A DNA stretch of 64,000 bases from a virus. The translations under genes were made by a program, and so were the position numbers. The stretch is taken from IMG/VR virus record IMGVR_UViG_3300018080_000100. One strand, written 5' to 3'. Within the stretch, counting starts at the first letter, position 1; each line of letters starts with the position of its first letter. Shown piece after piece: positions 2,509 to 64,000 of the stretch. The notes below the pieces were generated by a model. It had not been told where the DNA came from and did no database searches. It saw only the letters and a list, made by a program, of their open reading frames with translations.

Positions 2509-4594
2509 TGAACTCGTCTTCGGTCAGGATGGTGACATCCAGTTGCCGCGCCTTAGTCAGCTTGCTGCCGGCATCTGCGCCGGCCACGAGATAGTCGGTC
2601 TTGCCCGAGACACTGCTCGAAGCTTTGCCGCCAGCATCCTTGATGGCTTGTTTGATGCCATCGCGGGTGTAGCCGACGAGCTTGCCAGTCGCGCAGATGT
2701 TCTTGCCGTCCAGCGGACGTGGTCCGGCTGGCACTACCTCTGGCGGGGGATCGCCCATGCCCGTGTTGACGCCCCAGGTACGGAAGTCTTCCAGGAGCTG
2801 TCTGTTCCCGTCATGGGCCAGCCAGTCTTCAAGACTTGCAGCCGTCTCCTTACCTATCCCCTCCAGCTCGCTCAGACTATCTGCGCTCCACGAATTGCCC
2901 AACTCCACAAAAACGTCGACTGGCTTGCCGGCGCGCGCAACCACGGCCTTGCAAATCAGCTCGGAATTGGTCCGCCCGACGTGCTTGATGTTGAGCGACG
3001 CCATCAGGCGCCACGAGGGACGCGTAGCAGCCTCGTCTATGGCCGCCAGGAGCTTTTTCGACTTCCCAGGCGTCAAACCCGGAATGGCCCCAGAATCGGC
3101 GTCTACGGTGTCGTAGAGGCACCATAGATCGGCCAGGCTTGTGAGCAGCCCACCAACTTCGCCGTTGTAATCCTCCGCCATCATCGCCTGGACGGCCTTG
3201 GGACCGAGTCCGTCGATATCCAGGCGGCTGCGGTCGGCAGCTGCGAGGATTACGGCTTCTAGCTGGGCTGGGCAGCCTGCGGTGTTTGTGCAGGACACGA
3301 GGGGACCATCGCGCACGGTGTTGGCCTCGCAGACCGGGCACTTCTCGGGCGGCTTGAACTTCCGCGGCCGTCCGGTGCGCTTGCCCGTGTGTACCCGCAC
3401 CAGGTGGGGTATGATCTTCCCCGCCTTCTCCAGCGTCACAGTGTCCCCGATGCGGGGGTCCAACCGTTCGACCTCGTCGAAGTTGAACAGGGTGCTCTTC
3501 TGTACCGTAGTCTCAGCGATCTCGACGGGCTCGTAGTAGGCGACAGGCGTCAGCGTTCCTTGCTTACCGACCTGCGTCTCGAGCCGTACGATCTTGGTTT
3601 CAGCCTCATATCGCTCCCATTTGTAGGCCATGGCCCACGAAACGTGGCGCGATGAAACAGAGCCCATTGTTTCACGATCGCTGAAACAGTCCAGTTTCAG
3701 CACGATCCCGTCGACCGGAATATCAAGACCGTTGATCACGGCGACCATCTGCTCGATCTGCTTGCGCGCGACTGGATACGTCAGCGGGTTCATAGTCTCG
3801 CAGTTGCTCGGAATGCCCATCAGATGCAGCGCGTACATCGTCTCAACGAATGAGTCGTTGTAGTAGTCCGGATCGAACTGGCCGACGCCATGCGCTATGA
3901 AGTGCAGCTTGCGCTTCCAGCATTCCTTAGGGTCGTGCTGCCGCAATGCGCCCGACGCCGCGTTTCTGGAGTTCTTGAAGGGTTCCTCGCCGGCCTTCTC
4001 CTGCGCGTCCACCAGCGCGGCGAAGGCCGAGTTGGGGATATAGACCTCGCCGCGGACCTCCACGGTGCCGTCAACTTTGATCACATGATCATTTTTCGGC
4101 AGGTCGTCTCGGACGAGGCGTTCCAGCTTGCGCGGGATACCGCGGATCGACATGGCATTGTGGGTGATGTCATCACCCTTCTTGCCGTCGCCGCGGGTCA
4201 CAGCGCGCGTCAGTACACCGTCGACGTAGATCAGGCTGATGGCGCAGCCATCGACCTTCCAGTCGGCGCTATATACCGGGCCTTTCTTGAGCTTATGCGA
4301 CGCACGGACGTGGAACTTGTCCAACGCATCCACGTCAAAACCGTTGTCGATCGAGAGCATCGACACAGCGTGCTTGACGGATTTCAGCCCAGCGATGGGC
4401 TCGCCGCCGACACGTTGCGTGGGACTCTTCGGGTCAGCGAATTCCGGATTCTCGGCTTCCAGACGCTGCAGCTCCTTGAACTGCTTGTCGTAGAACGCAT
4501 CCGAGACGACCGATTCGCTGTATGTGTAGTACATACGGTCCCATTCTGCGATCGCGTCGCGGAGTTCTTCAATCTGTGTCCTTACGTCAGGCAT
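2489..4594 (-). CDS. ligA: NAD-dependent DNA ligase
   Basis: 701 aa; N-terminal Ia domain; adenylation motif KxDG (WKVDGCAISLIYVDG); OB fold; Cys4 zinc finger (CPVCEAN…C…C); HhH region; C-terminal BRCT-like domain. Matches the LigA family throughout. Confidence 0.9.
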   Translation of the reverse strand: MPDVRTQIEELRDAIAEWDRMYYTYSESVVSDAFYDKQFKELQRLEAENPEFADPKSPTQRVGGEPIAGLKSVKHAVSMLSIDNGFDVDALDKFHVRASHKLKKGPVYSADWKVDGCAISLIYVDGVLTRAVTRGDGKKGDDITHNAMSIRGIPRKLERLVRDDLPKNDHVIKVDGTVEVRGEVYIPNSAFAALVDAQEKAGEEPFKNSRNAASGALRQHDPKECWKRKLHFIAHGVGQFDPDYYNDSFVETMYALHLMGIPSNCETMNPLTYPVARKQIEQMVAVINGLDIPVDGIVLKLDCFSDRETMGSVSSRHVSWAMAYKWERYEAETKIVRLETQVGKQGTLTPVAYYEPVEIAETTVQKSTLFNFDEVERLDPRIGDTVTLEKAGKIIPHLVRVHTGKRTGRPRKFKPPEKCPVCEANTVRDGPLVSCTNTAGCPAQLEAVILAAADRSRLDIDGLGPKAVQAMMAEDYNGEVGGLLTSLADLWCLYDTVDADSGAIPGLTPGKSKKLLAAIDEAATRPSWRLMASLNIKHVGRTNSELICKAVVARAGKPVDVFVELGNSWSADSLSELEGIGKETAASLEDWLAHDGNRQLLEDFRTWGVNTGMGDPPPEVVPAGPRPLDGKNICATGKLVGYTRDGIKQAIKDAGGKASSSVSGKTDYLVAGADAGSKLTKARQLDVTILTEDEFNELVNA

Positions 4595-4925
4595 AGTCTT
4601 CCCCTCCTGGGAGCTTCTCGATTTTCTGTTGGATGATAAACGGCTTCTCGGCTTTGTGCCAATGCGGCCGATCCTGCAGCCATTCGTCCAGGGTCGTTGT
4701 TAGGTCGTATGCGGACCCGGCCATGGAGATGACAATTGTATCGCGCTCACCGTCGAAGAAGATCGGCCCGATGGGCATCAAGCCAGCAACCAGTGGATGT
4801 ACTAGCACTTGATTCATCTGCGGCTGATACCATACGGGCAGCTCGATCTCCGTCTCGACGATTTCGCTCGTTTCTCCGTGAAGAATCACGGGCATCTGAA
4901 TGAACGCCCTGTAGTGGTCGCTCAC
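4587..4925 (-). CDS. hypothetical protein (GTG start overlapping the upstream stop, GTGA)
   Basis: In-frame GTG overlaps the TGA of the upstream ORF and is preceded by a purine-rich stretch; 112 aa; no motif. Confidence 0.3.
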   Translation of the reverse strand: MSDHYRAFIQMPVILHGETSEIVETEIELPVWYQPQMNQVLVHPLVAGLMPIGPIFFDGERDTIVISMAGSAYDLTTTLDEWLQDRPHWHKAEKPFIIQQKIEKLPGGEDYA

Positions 4926-5164
4926 TTCTTCTTCTCCCGCTTGGGCTTCAACTTCGTCTCCTTGCTTTCTAAGCGCCGGGCAACATCGTAGTCGAGACAC
5001 TCGCGGTCGTACCGAGAGAGCTCTTCGATGTAACACCGTTCGCAGCGTACGAATGGCAGCCTAGCGCCACCAGTCGTAGGATACCAATTCGTGGTCACCT
5101 CGAGACATCTCGTGCATTTCTTTGTTGGCCGCCTTAGCGGCTTGGCTACGCTTGTAGTCTGCAT
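4922..5164 (-). CDS. small zinc-ribbon protein
   Basis: 80 aa with CxxC…CxxC (KKCTRC…VRCERCY) and a Lys-rich tail; it overlaps the neighbouring ORF, so the start is uncertain. Confidence 0.3.
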   Translation of the reverse strand: MQTTSVAKPLRRPTKKCTRCLEVTTNWYPTTGGARLPFVRCERCYIEELSRYDRECLDYDVARRLESKETKLKPKREKKK

Positions 5165-5375
5165 AAAGTGCCTCGATTAGTTGTTTGAACCGCCAACGCT
5201 GTGTGCCACACGCACACCGCCTAAGGATGTCGGGACGCCTCTGCATGATCCAGAGATCTGCAGCGTTTCTTTGTCTCGTGGACATGTATTGCGTCCAATA
5301 GTCTTCAGCAGCCTCTTGGCCGCGTGTGACCCGCATGTCGAGCGCGTTCTGTATCGACCACGGCAGGTATCTCAC
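5061..5375 (-). CDS. hypothetical protein
   Basis: 104-aa ORF; no motif. Confidence 0.3.
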   Translation of the reverse strand: MRYLPWSIQNALDMRVTRGQEAAEDYWTQYMSTRQRNAADLWIMQRRPDILRRCACGTQRWRFKQLIEALYADYKRSQAAKAANKEMHEMSRGDHELVSYDWWR

Positions 5376-5451
5376 GGCGGGGCGTGCTGCACTCGAATCC
5401 TGTTCAGATGGCGCTGTCTGTCCATAGCGGTATCCTCCATGATGAAGGTGA

Positions 5452-7269
5452 TTACAATACTGCGGGCGCTTCGGCGTCCACAGGTGCCTCGGCAGCTACT
5501 ACCAGAGGCGGACGACTGTCGTCTTCTTCGTTCTCAGCCGGACCGTGCAGGTTTTCGGCAAGCTCTAGGCCCTCCTCTAGCCGGTCAGCTTCTCTTAACT
5601 CTTGTTCGGTCATCCTGGCGTTCACGAACTCGGCGACGGTTGGCATCCGTACCGAGCAGTTGTACATGAACTGCCCAATACCCCAGCGGTTGCCCATCCA
5701 GTCGTGATAGCGCGCGTAGAACGCTTTGGTGTGCTTGTGCGCCTTGAACGACGGCGTTGAGTGCAACGCCTCGTGCACGAGCAAATGGGCGTAGCGCATC
5801 CACGCCGTAGGCCCTGTCTTCATGTCGCGCACGTGCTCGCGGTTGATGGCTATGTAGGTCTTGCCGTCCGTCCACGATGTCAACGGACCGTACCCAAGCA
5901 CGATACGCATGTCGTGGAGATTTTTACCAGGACCGCCTGGCCACGCACGCCACAGCTGATTGACGTTCTGCCGTAGGCATCCCAGGACCACAGATTCAAC
6001 ACGATTGAGCTGAGAGTCATCGATGATCTGCGACTTGGAATTCAGCGAGGCGACCAAATCGCCCCACGGTATGTACGTTAGCGCGTAGCGGTCGTACCCG
6101 CCGATTACGCGATTAACCAGCGCCACCAACGCTTCGCAGTTCTGCAGCCCGAAACGGGTCAGCGTGGTGTTGTCTATCACGCACGCCAGCTGATTGATGG
6201 TAATCGCCGCGACATTCGAGCGGTGCCTGTAACTGTAGTTGTCAGCGCCCCGCGGCGGGCTGGTAACTTGGCCACGGGCCACGTTGTGGACCTGCCGCAC
6301 AGTAAGATTCGCACGCTGCTCAAATCGCTTGAAGAGCCGAGCATTCTTGAACTGCTGGGCTTCCAGCTCGCCGTCTTTGGCCTGGTTACAGAGCCGTACA
6401 CGATCATCCTCGGTCAGCCTAACGGGCGCCGCGCGATTACCTGTCCTACGGCGCTGCGTTCCGGGCGTGGAACGCGTGCGCGTCTGCTCGGCGTTAGCCC
6501 GCTTGGTGATCTCCTTGAGCACCTTACGCCAGACAGGGCAGTCATCCATGATGTCGTTGCGCGCGAAGTTCACCTTGAGCGGCTTCTTCGTCACGACGTC
6601 ACCGCCTACACCGTACTTGTACCGGTAGTAGGAGATCACTTTGATGCCCTGGTTGTACACGCGCAGGTCTTGGTTCGCCCGATACCGAATATCGGCCTCC
6701 GGCGTCTCGACGTCCCACGGTACGCGGGCGCGATTGGCGACGAACTTGTCACCGTTCAGCGTGGCGTTCAGCTCAACGTACTTGGCGTTGCTCTTGATCT
6801 CTTCCTGCAGCTGCGACAACTGGGTGTGCGACAGCTGCTTGAACAGCTCTACTGTGACACTGCACCCGTCGCGGTGGTCCAGGCCCTCGGTAAGGTGGTA
6901 GTCCAGGCCGTCGCGCTCGATGTTGACGACCATCTCGAATTCGCCTGAGCGCCAGATGTTGTGGCCGAAAGCGAATAGCTGGCCACGGCCCATCCGGAAC
7001 GCTCCGAATGTCTTGTTCTCTCGTGCCTCATGCATCTTGCCGAAGACCTCGAAGAAGTCCTCGATGTCGCTTCGGGAGCGGAAACCCTTTCCGTTGTCCC
7101 GAATCGTCAGCATATTTCGCGTGAGTTCGATCTCGCATGTGGAGGCGCCTGCGTCGATGGCGTTCATGACGCCCTCGATCGTGGCTTTCCACAGGCTGCC
7201 GGCCTGACGTTTGATTATGTCAACCAGCAGTTGTTGGTCCATTTTGAAGCTACGTCGTTCTCTGCTCAT
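5452..7269 (-). CDS. GHKL-family ATPase fused to a C-terminal HExxH (zincin-like) domain
   Basis: 605 aa. N-terminus has the Bergerat-fold N-box (EGVMNAIDAGAS) and G1 box (IRDNGKGF). C-terminus carries LLVHEALHS (HExxH). The architecture is not a standard described fusion. Confidence 0.6.
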   Translation of the reverse strand: MSRERRSFKMDQQLLVDIIKRQAGSLWKATIEGVMNAIDAGASTCEIELTRNMLTIRDNGKGFRSRSDIEDFFEVFGKMHEARENKTFGAFRMGRGQLFAFGHNIWRSGEFEMVVNIERDGLDYHLTEGLDHRDGCSVTVELFKQLSHTQLSQLQEEIKSNAKYVELNATLNGDKFVANRARVPWDVETPEADIRYRANQDLRVYNQGIKVISYYRYKYGVGGDVVTKKPLKVNFARNDIMDDCPVWRKVLKEITKRANAEQTRTRSTPGTQRRRTGNRAAPVRLTEDDRVRLCNQAKDGELEAQQFKNARLFKRFEQRANLTVRQVHNVARGQVTSPPRGADNYSYRHRSNVAAITINQLACVIDNTTLTRFGLQNCEALVALVNRVIGGYDRYALTYIPWGDLVASLNSKSQIIDDSQLNRVESVVLGCLRQNVNQLWRAWPGGPGKNLHDMRIVLGYGPLTSWTDGKTYIAINREHVRDMKTGPTAWMRYAHLLVHEALHSTPSFKAHKHTKAFYARYHDWMGNRWGIGQFMYNCSVRMPTVAEFVNARMTEQELREADRLEEGLELAENLHGPAENEEDDSRPPLVVAAEAPVDAEAPAVL

Positions 7270-16254: not shown

Positions 16255-16271
16255 GACGCCTCCGTGCGAGT

Positions 16272-16345
16272 GCGCGCAGTCAGGATTCGAACCTGCATTT
16301 CTCCGTTGGCTACACTTAGGTTCCGGCAGCGCTACCTTTCCCGTT
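16272..16345 (-). tRNA. tRNA-like element (unresolved)
   Basis: T-loop CAGGTTCGAATCCTG present; acceptor pairing not found by hand. Confidence 0.25.
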
Positions 16346-16387
16346 CTCGCCCGCGGTTGACTGTCCAATCAGCCTATACGCGCGAAG

Positions 16388-25823: not shown

Positions 25824-25911
25824 TGGGAGATGAGGGAATCGAACCCCTCGGCCGCCACCTTACGTTCTTTTAGGCCAACGGGTTTACAGCCCGCCGAAAG
25901 GAACACCTCCC
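25824..25911 (-). tRNA. tRNA-Tyr (GTA), long variable arm
   Basis: 88 nt; anticodon arm GCGGG-CTGTAAA-CCCGT. Confidence 0.55.
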
Positions 25912-62526: not shown

Positions 62527-62805
62527 GGACTTACCTCCTTATGTACCTAACCCGTTGAACCCAGCCGCCAGTTACATCCGGCGACTTCCTGCAGCAAAAA
62601 TGAGAGACGCCGCCACCCTGTCAGAGTCGTAATGCTCTAAGGCAACCTACCTCGCATCTCTGCGACGTTGGCTATTGGACGATGCGTCATGGCGGCATCT
62701 CTCGTAGTCACGGCCCTTGCTGAAGAGGCCGCAAATGGAGTGCAAAAGAAAACGGCAGCGCCCGAAGTGGACGCTGCCGCTCGAAAGAAACTTTCCCCAT
62801 CACTC

Positions 62806-62936
62806 GGGAGAGGACTCGCCTGGATTCGAACCAGGGACCACTGGATTAAATTCGATAACGCTTACCGCTCGGCCCTGTAAGGCGTGGGTAGTTGATAAAC
62901 GAGTCTTCCGGTGCTCTTCCAACTGAGCTACGAGTC
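62806..62936 (-). other. tRNA-like gene with a ~60-nt insertion in the anticodon region
   Basis: Perfect acceptor GGACTCG/CGAGTCC, D-arm GCTC-AGTTGGAA-GAGC and T-arm CCTGG-TTCGAAT-CCAGG; the middle holds a long insert enclosed by CACCGGA/TCCAGTG pairing. Confidence 0.4.
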
Positions 62937-63016
62937 CTTAAAAGTGGGCGTGTTTGTAGCGGTCGAGGGAGCGATTGCCCTAAACAATAACCCTCTGTTG
63001 CAATCCGGCCCACAAG

Positions 63017-63140
63017 CTGGGGAGGTAGGAATCGAACCTACGCCTCGCGTTTTCAAGACGGTAACGCATTCCGTCCGGCCCTAAAAGGGCGTGTAATTGG
63101 CATGCGCGTTTTCACGTGCTTCCAGTTACACCACTCCCCA
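63017..63140 (-). other. tRNA-like gene with a ~50-nt insertion
   Basis: Acceptor TGGGGAG/CTCCCCA and T-arm GTAGG-TTCGATT-CCTAC; the insert is flanked by the direct repeat TGAAAACGCG and contains the ACACGCCC…TTTTAGGGCCGG motif. Confidence 0.35.
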
Positions 63141-63410
63141 ATTGACAACGCCAAGATCCTAAAGTAAGGGCGTGTGAATGACTGCGGATATTGGCGTTGT
63201 CATGGTACGATAATCCGCGGCCTCCGGCCCTAGTACGTTGGTTTCACTGAAAACGGGCGTGTTTGGTGTCTGTAGAGGGGTGGATTGGTTGTTGGTAATC
63301 AATAACCCTCAGTCGACGTCCGGCCCGAAGGGCCCGAGGCGGCGGTGAAACCGCCACGGGCATGTGGACAGTATAGCCCACGTGGCGGTCCTAGTACAAG
63401 GATGCCAAGG

Positions 63411-63477
63411 CGGGGCCGCTGGATTCGATCCTAGGATCACGTTCGCTGGTAAGAGCGTCTGCTTTCCACGGCCCCAA
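63411..63477 (-). other. minimal tRNA-like element
   Basis: GGGGCCG…CGGCCCC terminal pairing, an anticodon-like CGCT-CTTACCA-AGCG hairpin and a GGATCGAATCC T-loop-like motif; no clear D-arm. Confidence 0.25.
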
Positions 63478-64000
63478 ATGGACGCACCAGTTTGCAGTCC
63501 TGGTGCGCCCGTGTTTTGGGCATGACTTGGTCCCTCCTCCTTTCGGCACGAGTATAACCATTTCATGCGATAACCGACCAGCACAAATCCGGCCCCGCTA
63601 TGAGTCCGGGGTTTGGCGTTGCTTCGGCCATACTGGCAGCCCGCAACTACCCCGGGGGGCGTGCAAGGATGCGCAAATACGCACCCAACGGCAGTCGGAG
63701 TTGCTGCTCCTGAGAGCAGCTCAGTACCACTCTATAATGCCTCCAAATGTGTCATTTTTCAATGCCATTTCAGCCGGAGACGACGCGCGCGAGTGGCTAG
63801 TTACGCGCGAAATCGGCGATGACTGCTGGCACGCTGGCGTTGAGACCCACAACGTCCAGCATATCCATGTCATCAGGGACAGCGATCGAGAAGCCGTTGC
63901 TGGCAAACGCGACCACGACAAGCTTCGCACGGATGCCCATGGCGTCACGATACTGTTGTAACGCCTGGTGCGGATGCGGGTTAGCGCCGTACGCGCTTCC

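What the first reader, a model, noticed from the sequence alone, without database searches (positions are those of the whole stretch)
62600..63700. Array of non-canonical tRNA-like genes with ~50-60-nt insertions and a recurring ACACGCCC-N-CTTTTA motif
At least three minus-strand elements have perfect acceptor, D-arm and T-arm features, but short insertions fill the anticodon region. The insertions are too small for group I introns, and one is bounded by the 10-nt direct repeat TGAAAACGCG. A conserved motif (minus-strand reading ACACGCCC(A)CTTTTA(A/G)GG) recurs upstream of four of the elements and inside two of the inserts. Three readings are possible: a novel small tRNA-intron or insertion element, a processing signal, or a promoter.
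Basis: seen in the sequence. Interest (0 to 1): 0.7.

Follow-up and report, generated by a model that had tools for sequence, protein, structure and literature searches.

The report
Phage Y RNA array, tRNA-ordered
The odd "tRNA genes with inserts" are Y RNAs, the small RNA partners of the Ro60 protein encoded right next to them in a giant phage; they keep the normal tRNA gene order, whereas all described bacterial tRNA-like Y RNAs (YrlA) are circularly permuted.

Summary
Two minus-strand elements, B (63140-63017) and C (62937-62811), have 7-bp acceptor stems, D arms and T arms, with 74-77 nt where an anticodon arm should be. The ACACGCCC motif and the 10-nt direct repeat are also there. A third element (A) is degenerate.

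The inserts are not introns, insertion elements or promoters. The array fills the 1.27-kb gap just downstream of a phage Ro60 (TROVE + vWA) gene. It lies between a promoter-like site and a strong terminator.

B and C are YrlA-type Y RNAs. Their "insert" is the Ro60-binding helix: 3' strand ACACGCCC, a short cap, then 5' strand GGGCCGGA...CGTTAYC. Hairpin-type Y RNAs carrying the same two strands lie between them.

Known YrlAs run T arm, closed acceptor hairpin, D arm. B and C are the circular permutant that restores tRNA order, with an open acceptor stem.

Support:
- Seven similar elements sit in three other uncultivated-phage Ro60 loci.
- Covariation is strong (94% of cells paired).
- A model built without the window finds C and B at E ~1e-16 and ~1e-13, well above all 39 real tRNAs.
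- In-silico permutation restores one colinear match to canonical YrlAs.

Ro60 binding and tRNA-like maturation are inferred, not shown.

Verdict: a new variant of a known kind.

The parts
63797..64000 (-). 3' end of the phage Ro60 (rsr) gene. The full gene is 580 aa (TROVE + vWA_Ro60) on the source contig.
   Evidence: Pfam PF25045 vWA_Ro60, E 3.2e-22. Full gene at L125:6988-8730 with TROVE + vWA_Ro60. Annotated 'Ro-like RNA binding protein' in 350+ phages.
63734..63762 (-). Promoter-like site (TTGAAA-17-CATTAT) at the head of the array, 35 nt after the Ro60 stop codon.
   Evidence: consensus match only.
63480..63700 (-). Proximal structured region carrying Ro-type motifs: GCCGAAG (63628-63622), unit a GGGCCGGA-N12-GGTTATCGC (63595-63567), GCCGAAAGG (63547-63539) and an 11-bp hairpin (63510-63480). 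Unit boundaries are unresolved.
   Evidence: I6; z = -3.0.
63411..63475 (-). Element A: a degenerate tRNA-like RNA with a 7-bp acceptor GGGGCCG/CGGCCCC and a T-loop-like GGATCGAATCC. It has no D arm and no insert.
   Evidence: 17.3 bits, E 0.005; z = -2.4.
63255..63326 (-). Unit b: hairpin-type Y RNA candidate. 5' GGGCCGGA...GGGTTAT, 3' ACACGCCC, followed by GUUUU.
63168..63230 (-). Unit c: hairpin-type Y RNA candidate. 5' GGGCCGGA...GGATTAT, 3' ACACGCCC. Its fold is ambiguous because of the 17-bp hairpin 63202-63143.
   Evidence: (I1).
63017..63140 (-). Element B: tRNA-order YrlA-like Y RNA of the GUGU D-arm class. Acceptor 63140-63134 / 63024-63018; D arm 63131-63116; linker UGAAAACGCG 63114-63105; Ro helix with cap, ACACGCCC-UUUUA-GGGCCGGA, 63094-63074; AUGCG-UUAC 63069-63061; V hairpin 63060-63048; T arm 63041-63025; discriminator G 63017.
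   Evidence: 62.4 bits, E 2e-13, with a model that excludes the window; z = -4.0.
62946..63011 (-). Unit e: hairpin-type Y RNA candidate lying between B and C. 5' (U)GGGCCGGA...GGGTTAT, 3' ACACGCCC(A), followed by CUUUUAA.
   Evidence: (terminal helix covaries with the equivalent units in L131 and L133).
62811..62937 (-). Element C: tRNA-order YrlA-like Y RNA of the GCUC D-arm class. Acceptor 62937-62931 / 62818-62812; D arm 62928-62913; Ro helix with cap, CCCACGCC-UUACA-GGGCCGAG, 62888-62868; GCGUUAUCGAAU 62861-62850; T arm 62835-62819; discriminator U 62811.
   Evidence: (74.6 bits, E 2e-16).
62742..62782 (-). Intrinsic terminator (14-bp stem, 9 G-C pairs, then a T-run) closing the array.
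   Evidence: It is also picked up as terminator-like by weak Rfam hits.

Best explanation
The region is a roughly 1-kb noncoding operon of Y RNA genes that serves the phage's own Ro60 protein. It holds hairpin-type Y RNAs (units a, b, c, e) and two tRNA-like Y RNAs (B, C) of the YrlA family.

In B and C the place of the anticodon arm is taken by a long irregular hairpin. Its two strands are the two strands of the Y RNA Ro60-binding helix: the 3' strand ...ACACGCCC, and the 5' strand GGGCCGG(A)...CGUUAYC. A short cap joins them. The acceptor stem is open, as in a real tRNA. B and C are therefore circular permutants of canonical YrlA, which runs 5' Ro strand, V hairpin, T arm, closed acceptor hairpin, D arm, 3' Ro strand.

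Shown here: the anatomy, the link to Ro60 genes, the homology and permutation relationship, and purifying selection on the tRNA-like helices.

Inferred: (i) the array is transcribed as one precursor from the promoter-like site, or by read-through from rsr, up to the terminator. (ii) The 7-bp acceptor stems make B and C substrates for RNase P and for tRNA 3' processing with CCA addition. M. smegmatis YrlA is processed this way (PMC4201824). These cuts would also release the hairpin Y RNAs that start 4-6 nt after each tRNA-like element. (iii) Ro60 binds the GGGCCGG(A) helix, and the tRNA-like elbow recruits an effector. By analogy that could be PNPase, as in the Ro60-Y RNA-PNPase complexes of Deinococcus, Salmonella and Thermus phage phiLo, or it could be a tRNA-binding factor.
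For: Location. The array lies directly downstream of, and on the same strand as, a complete Ro60 gene. It is bracketed by a promoter-like site and a strong terminator.

Motifs. ACACGCCC and GGGCCGRR cluster only here, on one strand. The composite GGGCCGRR-N4-14-GRTTAY occurs 4 times against 0.05 expected. It recurs on the Ro60 strand in six other phages' Ro60 loci (13 matches), against 2 matches in about 120 unrelated loci. ACACGCCCAC lies in the 3' half of the validated M. smegmatis YrlA and in the M. abscessus prophage YrlA.

Topology. My classifier finds the canonical order in all 9 cultured-phage Ro60 loci that gave a call. It finds tRNA order with a 63-97-nt insert in three IMG/VR Ro60 loci (7 elements) and in the window (2 elements), against 1 hit in 2.1 Mb of control DNA.

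Covariation over 8 elements. 94.4% of cells are paired, against at most 50% when the partners are slid. 13 of 20 pairs change on both sides. Acceptor and T stems are 100% paired.

Independent membership. A covariance model built only from the IMG/VR elements scores C at 74.6 bits and B at 62.4 bits. The best of the 39 true tRNAs scores 28.3 bits.

Permutation. Against a profile of 12 canonical YrlAs, native B and C match as two swapped pieces. Permuted in silico, each gives a single colinear match (42.7 and 34.7 bits). Shuffled sequences score 0.8 bits or less. The model also aligns block for block to the stretch from the D arm of one unit to the T arm of the next in a tandem canonical array.

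Hairpin units start 4-6 nt after the tRNA-like 3' ends in several phages, and their terminal helices covary.
Against: There is no expression, processing or binding data. The window's array is identical in all four assemblies, so there is no within-lineage variation.

The Ro60 contact is assigned by motif resemblance only. GGGCCGGA differs from the published GNCGAA(N0-1)G at one position, and a second candidate (UUAUCGAAU) exists in C and L131b.

The long middle hairpin could not be aligned consistently, so its covariation is shown only by listing helices, not by a formal count.

Thermodynamic support is weak for C (z = -0.7) and modest for units b and e (z = -1.6). Unit c has a competing 17-bp hairpin.

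The Rfam YrlA model does not recognise B or C (15.9 bits against a gathering score of 69).

One similar element (L075) has no Ro60 gene within 14 kb.
Confidence: 0.8

Rival explanations
1. B and C are genuine tRNA genes interrupted by a new kind of small intron. Splicing would yield functional tRNAs, for example an ochre suppressor from C.
For: ARAGORN with introns allowed models C as tRNA(UUA) with a 56-nt intron and B as tRNA-Gly(ACC) with a 45-nt intron. The short hairpins before the T arm have 7-nt loops with U33 and a purine at 37 in several relatives.
Against: The predicted anticodon stems are poor: one mismatch in C, and A/U-rich with irregular pairing in B. There is no group I or group II signal. 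The 'intron' sequence is conserved across distant phages and is colinear with the Ro-binding part of canonical YrlAs. Such elements occur at Ro60 loci rather than in the phage's 30-kb tRNA region. No bacterial splicing system for such inserts is known (established knowledge).
Confidence: 0.04
2. They are decaying tRNA pseudogenes, each disrupted by a small mobile insertion. The direct repeat TGAAAACGCG would be its target-site duplication.
For: The exact 10-nt direct repeat flanks most of the insert in B. Chance expectation is about 0.7% by my estimate.
Against: Strong compensatory covariation in four helices across eight diverged copies shows purifying selection. C and the seven relatives have no such repeat. 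Deleting between the repeats leaves about 15 nt between the D and T stems, which is not a tRNA. Copy 1 corresponds to the conserved post-D-arm linker (GCUAAAAC in relatives and in canonical YrlAs). Copy 2 corresponds to the V hairpin.
Confidence: 0.03
3. The RNAs are ordinary, permuted YrlAs that were read in the wrong register. On this view the real unit runs from the T arm of B through the spacer to the D arm of C, as the weak Rfam hit suggests.
For: Rfam YrlA aligns 63050-62905 in that register. Tandem canonical arrays do exist in cultured phages.
Against: The score is only 15.9 bits against a gathering score of 69, and the alignment needs a 92-nt insertion where the acceptor hairpin should be. 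The acceptor 3' half of B (CTCCCCA) cannot pair with the 5' half of C (GGACTCG). Each element's own halves pair 7 out of 7 and covary across relatives. The 92 nt contain a self-contained hairpin unit (e).
Confidence: 0.03
4. B and C are tRNA-shaped 'punctuation' whose only role is to direct RNase P and RNase Z cleavage, which releases the hairpin Y RNAs. They do not themselves bind Ro60.
For: Hairpin units begin 4-6 nt after the tRNA-like 3' ends and end just before the next 5' end, here and in L131 and L133. In Deinococcus, Yrn2, tRNA-Asp and Yrn1 are co-transcribed (PMC4201824).
Against: Plain tRNAs would do that job. Instead the inserts carry the same conserved GGGCCGG(A)...CGUUAYC strand as the hairpin units, and are homologous to the Ro module of canonical YrlA.
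Confidence: 0.08

Closest known systems
YrlA (Y RNA-like A; Rfam RF02553) of bacteria and actinophages (Chen et al. 2014, PMC4201824; Wang et al. 2018, bioRxiv 10.1101/312249)
   Same: Encoded next to Ro60 and on the same strand. tRNA-like D and T arms with near-consensus sequences; the D arm of C, GUAGCUCAGUUGGAAGAGC, compares with the consensus GUAGCUCAauuuGGUAGAGC. The post-D-arm linker G-YUAAAA, the conserved UUAY element, the V hairpin before the T arm and a Ro-type motif on the strand 5' of it are all shared. There is block-by-block sequence homology.
   Different: The connectivity differs. Canonical YrlA has its T arm 5' of its D arm, a closed acceptor hairpin, and RNA ends at the Ro helix ('circularly permuted tRNA'). 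B and C have tRNA order, an open 7-bp acceptor stem and a capped Ro helix. The Rfam model does not detect them (15.9 bits). The Ro motif is GGGCCGGA/GGGCCGAG rather than GNCGAA(N0-1)G.
[quoted passage not shown] 2014)
   Same: The end product has an open 7-bp acceptor stem with a tRNA-like 3' end, plus a Ro module that contains ...CACACGCCCAC....
   Different: There the open acceptor is produced by cutting a closed hairpin, which gives a two-piece RNA. Here the gene order itself would give a one-piece RNA. Processing has not been tested here.
Deinococcus radiodurans Yrn1
   Same: The D-like element precedes the T arm, as in tRNA, and it is a Ro60 partner.
   Different: In Yrn1 the Ro-binding helix is formed by the RNA's 5' and 3' ends, in the position of the acceptor stem, and an anticodon-like arm lies between the D and T elements (PMC4201824). 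In B and C the acceptor is a plain 7-bp stem and the Ro motif is internal, in the anticodon position.
Hairpin-type Y RNAs (Salmonella and M. smegmatis YrlB, Deinococcus Yrn2, Thermus phage phiLo Yrl1/Yrl2, metazoan Y RNAs)
   Same: Units b, c and e have a terminal 5'/3' helix carrying a GGUCCGA-like motif (GGGCCGGA) and a U-rich 3' trailer. They are encoded beside Ro60, and there are several per locus.
   Different: There is no sequence homology beyond the motif. Their ends and their binding are not determined here.
Permuted tRNA genes of red algae and archaea; two-piece and permuted tmRNA
   Same: They are precedents showing that tRNA-shaped RNAs tolerate circular permutation and that both gene orders can exist for one fold.
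   Different: Those mature into (or act as) translation RNAs. These are Ro60 partners with no anticodon arm.

Membership tests
YrlA / bacterial Y RNA | Encoded within about 4 kb of a Ro60 (TROVE) ortholog, on the same strand | tested here: met
   Ro60 stop codon at 63797. B and C lie 0.66-0.99 kb downstream on the same strand.
YrlA / bacterial Y RNA | tRNA-like module with conserved D and T stem-loops and the nucleotides needed for tRNA tertiary contacts (U8, A14, G18G19, T-loop UUCRA) | tested here: met
   Covariation. C has G15 with C48.
YrlA / bacterial Y RNA | T arm 5' of the D arm, joined by a closed acceptor-like hairpin (permuted order) | tested here: not met
   The order is acceptor 5', D, insert, T, acceptor 3'. 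This is the feature that makes them a variant.
YrlA / bacterial Y RNA | Reaches the Rfam RF02553 gathering score (69 bits) | tested here: not met
   15.9 bits, in a false register. Canonical YrlAs of cultured actinophages also score only 33-47 bits.
YrlA / bacterial Y RNA | Sequence homology over the whole length to accepted YrlAs | tested here: met
   After in-silico permutation: B 42.7 bits (profile positions 9-132 of 144) and C 34.7 bits. The native sequences match as two swapped halves.
YrlA / bacterial Y RNA | GNCGAA(N0-1)G Ro60-recognition motif on the strand 5' of the V and T arms | tested here: inconclusive
   That position carries GGGCCGGA (B) and GGGCCGAG (C), which are one-off variants. 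The metazoan contact is GGUCCGA. Exact GCCGAAG occurs only at 63628-63622.
YrlA / bacterial Y RNA | Physically bound and stabilised by Ro60 | not testable with these tools
   Needs EMSA or co-immunoprecipitation.
tRNA (RF00005) | Cloverleaf with a 5-bp anticodon stem and 7-nt loop at canonical spacing, reaching the family threshold | tested here: not met
   Default ARAGORN makes no call. Rfam tRNA gives 17.3 bits against 29. The D-to-T distance is 74 and 77 nt.
Intron-containing tRNA gene (group I, or bulge-helix-bulge type) | A recognisable intron core or splice motif, with exons that join into a canonical anticodon arm | tested here: not met
   No intron family hit at E <= 10. Inserts are 45-56 nt. 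The joined 'exons' give poor anticodon arms.
Deinococcus Yrn1-type Y RNA | Ro-binding helix formed by the RNA termini in the place of the acceptor stem, with an anticodon-like arm between the D and T elements | tested here: not met
   The termini form a plain covarying 7-bp acceptor stem, and the Ro-type motif is internal.

The most novel reading that the evidence does not exclude
tRNA-order YrlAs may form a distinct, so far undescribed class of Y RNA, matured exactly like tRNAs (RNase P cut, 3' trimming, CCA addition). That would give a single-chain Ro60-bound RNA with a free CCA end.

Such an RNA could be aminoacylated. It could also present Ro60 and its nuclease partner to tRNA-handling enzymes, or act as a decoy for them. 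Either role would fit a giant phage that carries about 40 tRNA genes.

The class also suggests that YrlA arose from a single tRNA whose anticodon arm became a Ro60-binding helix. The familiar permuted form would then derive from it, or interconvert with it, through tandem duplication. This differs from the published model of origin from a dimer of ordinary tRNAs.
Probability: 0.3. Interest if true: 0.8.

Novelty: new variant of a known kind. Interest (0 to 1): 0.6.

Why it matters
Bacterial and phage Y RNAs are described as tRNA mimics that differ from tRNA in two ways: they are circularly permuted, and they lack a free acceptor end. The leading origin model (a dimeric tRNA transcript) was built on that permutation.

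Here, and in at least three other uncultivated phage lineages, the same modules are wired in true tRNA order with an open 7-bp acceptor stem.

- This gives a natural test of whether Ro60 needs free helix ends.
- It predicts Y RNAs that pass through the whole tRNA maturation pathway.
- It supplies the form that lets the two topologies interconvert by tandem duplication.
- It shows that current models (Rfam RF02553, tRNA finders) miss a class of Ro60 partners. Ro60 genes that seem to have no Y RNA may in fact have one.

On the practical side, annotators should not call these elements intron-bearing tRNAs or tRNA pseudogenes.

Tried and rejected
- Nucleotide search of the region against 50,697 phage records found no match.
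- The junction pattern ACACGCCC-N3-9-GGGCCG in IMG/VR gave 120+ hits. None had a T arm nearby, so they are chance hits in GC-rich DNA.
- The 22-nt block shared by B and C gave 0 hits in IMG/VR and 3 in metagenomes. All three lie inside coding sequence, so they are chance hits.
- The downstream 290-aa protein used as a synteny anchor returned only the same phage, in four identical assemblies, plus a 2-kb fragment without the array. So no natural variants were available.
- The short Ro60 fragment used as a probe found two IMG/VR loci with no downstream array.
- Rfam at a permissive threshold gave nothing meaningful.
- MAFFT could not align the long middle hairpin consistently, so I did not count its pairs formally.
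- The TSD/insertion reading and the intron reading were considered and rejected (see rivals).
- Reviews PMC10870794 and PMC6047535 are not held. I could not check whether they mention non-permuted forms.
- I suspected the L075 control hit of being Ro60-linked, but no Ro60 lies within the 14 kb held.
Full report
**1. What is there**

Read on the minus strand, the flagged region contains two clean tRNA-like elements.
- B is 63140-63017: acceptor TGGGGAG/CTCCCCA, D arm GTGT-AACTGGAA-GCAC, T arm GTAGG-TTCGATT-CCTAC.
- C is 62937-62811: acceptor GGACTCG/CGAGTCC, D arm GCTC-AGTTGGAA-GAGC, T arm CCTGG-TTCGAAT-CCAGG.

They have 74 and 77 nt between the D and T arms. ARAGORN finds 39 ordinary tRNAs elsewhere in the window and none here. 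Rfam finds none at threshold. With introns allowed, ARAGORN models B and C with 45- and 56-nt 'introns' and poor anticodon arms.

ACACGCCC occurs four times on this strand in 62946-63262, against 2.8 expected for the whole window on both strands. The 10-nt repeat TGAAAACGCG is present in B. A third candidate, A (63475-63411), has a 7-bp acceptor and a T-loop-like sequence but no D arm.

**2.

The ORF that runs off the window end (63797-64000, minus strand) is the C-terminus of a Ro60 protein (Pfam vWA_Ro60, E 3e-22). The window comes from a metagenomic phage contig of about 226 kb. On that contig the complete 580-aa Ro60 (TROVE + vWA_Ro60) is followed by a 1.27-kb gene-free gap, which is exactly this array. 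The array is identical in four assemblies.

A promoter-like site (63762-63734) follows the Ro60 stop codon, and a 14-bp intrinsic terminator (62782-62742) follows C. Ro60 genes of bacteria and phages are known to be flanked by genes for their RNA partners, the Y RNAs. One class of these, YrlA, mimics tRNA (PMC4201824).

**3. The 'insert' is a Ro60-binding module**

A second motif, GGGCCGGA (GGGCCGAG in C), occurs six times on the same strand in 62868-63595.

In units b (63326-63255), c (63230-63168) and e (63011-62946) it is at the 5' end and ACACGCCC is at the 3' end. The two form the terminal helix of a hairpin. In B and C the same two strands lie inside the insert in the opposite order, joined by a 5-nt cap: ACACGCCC-UUUUA-GGGCCGGA in B and CCCACGCC-UUACA-GGGCCGAG in C.

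GGGCCGAG/GGGCCGGA resembles the GGUCCGA contacted by Xenopus Ro60 and the bacterial GNCGAA(N0-1)G (PMC4201824). ACACGCCCAC is part of the 3' half of the experimentally validated M. smegmatis YrlA (reverse complement of its Northern probe). It is also in a YrlA of an M. abscessus prophage.

The composite GGGCCGRR-N4-14-GRTTAY occurs four times in the window, all in the array, against 0.05 expected. It recurs on the Ro60 strand at six other phages' Ro60 loci (13 matches), against 2 matches in about 120 unrelated loci.

**4. Relatives and topology**

Sequence searches found no close relatives. Ro60 itself is at most 49% identical to anything in IMG/VR or the phage records.

I therefore classified tRNA-like modules structurally in 18 Ro60 loci.
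- All nine cultured actinophage loci that gave a call have the canonical YrlA order: T arm, acceptor hairpin, D arm. These are Sixama, Trina, ET08, GMA2, Blueeyedbeauty, Farewell, BearBQ, FuzzBuster and prophiGD43A-5.
- Three uncultivated-phage loci (L131, L132, L133) have seven elements built like B and C: a 7-bp acceptor, a D arm, a 63-97-nt insert and a T arm. All are on the Ro60 strand, and most sit in arrays in the gap next to Ro60.
- The same scan finds one such element in 2.1 Mb of unrelated viral DNA, and none elsewhere in the window.

The eight alignable elements share this layout: D arm, G-YUAAAA linker, long irregular hairpin with a variable cap, GGGCCGG(A), CGUUAYC, a 3-4-bp hairpin with a 7-nt loop, then the T arm. 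B aligns end to end with L131b, with fully compensatory acceptor and T stems.

**5. Formal support**

On the eight-sequence alignment, the acceptor, D, V-hairpin and T helices are 94.4% paired, against at most 50% when the 3' partners are slid. 13 of 20 pairs change on both sides, and no shuffle out of 500 reaches the observed covariation.

A covariance model built only from the six IMG/VR elements ranks C (74.6 bits, E 2e-16) and B (62.4 bits, E 2e-13) first in the window. The best genuine tRNA scores 28.3 bits. B and C are therefore members of a conserved RNA family associated with Ro60 and under selection. They are not decaying tRNAs.

**6. Circular permutation**

I built a sequence profile from 12 canonical phage YrlAs.
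- Native B and C match it as two pieces in swapped order. For B, profile 5-70 aligns to nt 58-121 and profile 80-133 aligns to nt 3-55.
- After cutting in the cap and joining the acceptor ends in silico, each gives one colinear match. B scores 42.7 bits over profile 9-132 of 144, and C scores 34.7 bits.
- Four relatives behave the same way, and shuffles score 0.8 bits or less.

In the M. abscessus prophage, canonical YrlAs lie in tandem. The tRNA-order model aligns block for block to the stretch from the D arm of unit 1 to the T arm of unit 2 (60.6 bits). This shows that a tandem duplicate of either form contains the other form. That is the usual route to permutation.

Both D-arm classes (GCUC...GAGC and GUGU...GCAC) occur in both topologies.

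**7. How it probably works (inferred)**

- The array is probably made as one precursor.
- B and C have tRNA-grade acceptor stems. Like the phage's own tRNAs, they have no encoded CCA (0 of 25 checked). They should be cut by RNase P and given CCA, as shown for the 7-bp-stem YrlA of M. smegmatis (PMC4201824).
- Hairpin Y RNAs begin 4-6 nt after the 3' end of the tRNA-like elements, here and in L131 and L133, and their terminal helices covary (TGGGC/GCCCA, GCGGGT/ATCCGC, GCGAGC/GCUCGC, GCGAGUGG/CCACUCGC). The same cuts would therefore release them.
- Ro60 would bind the GGGCCGG(A) helix.
- The tRNA elbow would recruit an effector. PNPase is the precedent, including for a phage Ro60 (PMC12135203).

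None of these steps is shown here.

**8. Rivals**

- Spliced tRNAs, insertion-disrupted pseudogenes and mis-registered canonical YrlAs are each contradicted by specific results (see the rivals section).
- Pure processing punctuation is not excluded. It does not explain the conserved Ro-type strand inside the inserts.

**9. Unresolved**

- Which motif is the true Ro60 contact.
- The reason for the exact 10-nt repeat in B.
- The 17-bp hairpin that overlaps unit c.
- The unit structure of the proximal third of the array.
- An orphan relative with no nearby Ro60 (L075).

I found no description of tRNA-order YrlAs in the papers I could read. Two reviews were not available.

**10. Verdict**

This is a real, selected feature. 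It is a Y RNA operon for a phage Ro60, and its tRNA-like members are a non-permuted topological variant of YrlA. It is a new variant of a known kind, of moderate to high interest to the Ro60/Y RNA and tRNA-mimicry fields.

Noticed in passing
window 25825-25910 (minus strand): An 86-nt tRNA-like sequence with a 7-bp acceptor (GGGAGGT/ATCTCCC), the T arm GAGGGGTTCGATTCCCTC and the hairpin CGGG-CTGTAAA-CCCG (anticodon GTA, Tyr). It has no normal D arm, and ARAGORN and Rfam do not call it. Tyr is the only amino acid missing from the 39 called tRNAs.
   Followed up: partly
window 16271-16383 (minus strand): A 113-nt tRNA-like sequence next to tRNA-Pro, with about 65 nt between the D-like and T arms, including GCCGGAA. 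It scores weakly with my models (26 and 12.9 bits), and it is 46 kb from Ro60.
   Followed up: partly
window 63143-63202: A 17-nt inverted repeat (94% complementary) forms a long hairpin that ends 2 nt before the 5' end of B. It places the ACACGCCC of unit c in its loop. It may be an RNase III site or an alternative fold.
   Followed up: partly
window 12671-43988: 39 canonical tRNA genes, all on the minus strand, spread over about 31 kb. None encodes CCA. This is typical of a giant phage with its own near-complete tRNA set.
   Followed up: no
L139 (Gordonia phage GMA2) 5491-5547: A Pistol ribozyme match (RF02679, 56.8 bits against a gathering score of 34.5) between tRNA-Trp and tRNA-Gln, just downstream of Ro60, the tmRNA and YrlA.
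   Followed up: no
L001 3582-4003 (Sixama); L139 4770-5181 (GMA2): Strong tmRNA matches (88 and 95 bits) right after the Ro60 gene. They are not annotated in the records, and in GMA2 the match overlaps the annotated 'Orf58'.
   Followed up: no
L002 1281-1489 (Rhodococcus phage Trina): The annotated 209-nt 'tRNA-OTHER' pseudogene is really the D arm of one canonical YrlA joined to the T arm and acceptor of the next. This is an annotation artefact of a Y RNA array.
   Followed up: partly
L133 5611-5731: A tRNA-order element just downstream of Ro60. Its insert itself contains a T arm (GGGGTTCGACTCCCC) and a second D arm (GTGTAACGGTAGCAC), so the arrangement is nested.
   Followed up: no
L075 4732-4845: An orphan tRNA-order element with a YrlA-type D arm, a T arm identical to that of Sixama YrlA, a 64-nt insert and an encoded CCA. 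No Ro60 gene lies within the 14 kb held.
   Followed up: partly
L133 3995-5597: The Ro60 coding region appears split into two overlapping ORFs (3995-4576 and 4362-5597). This is either a frameshift or an assembly error.
   Followed up: no
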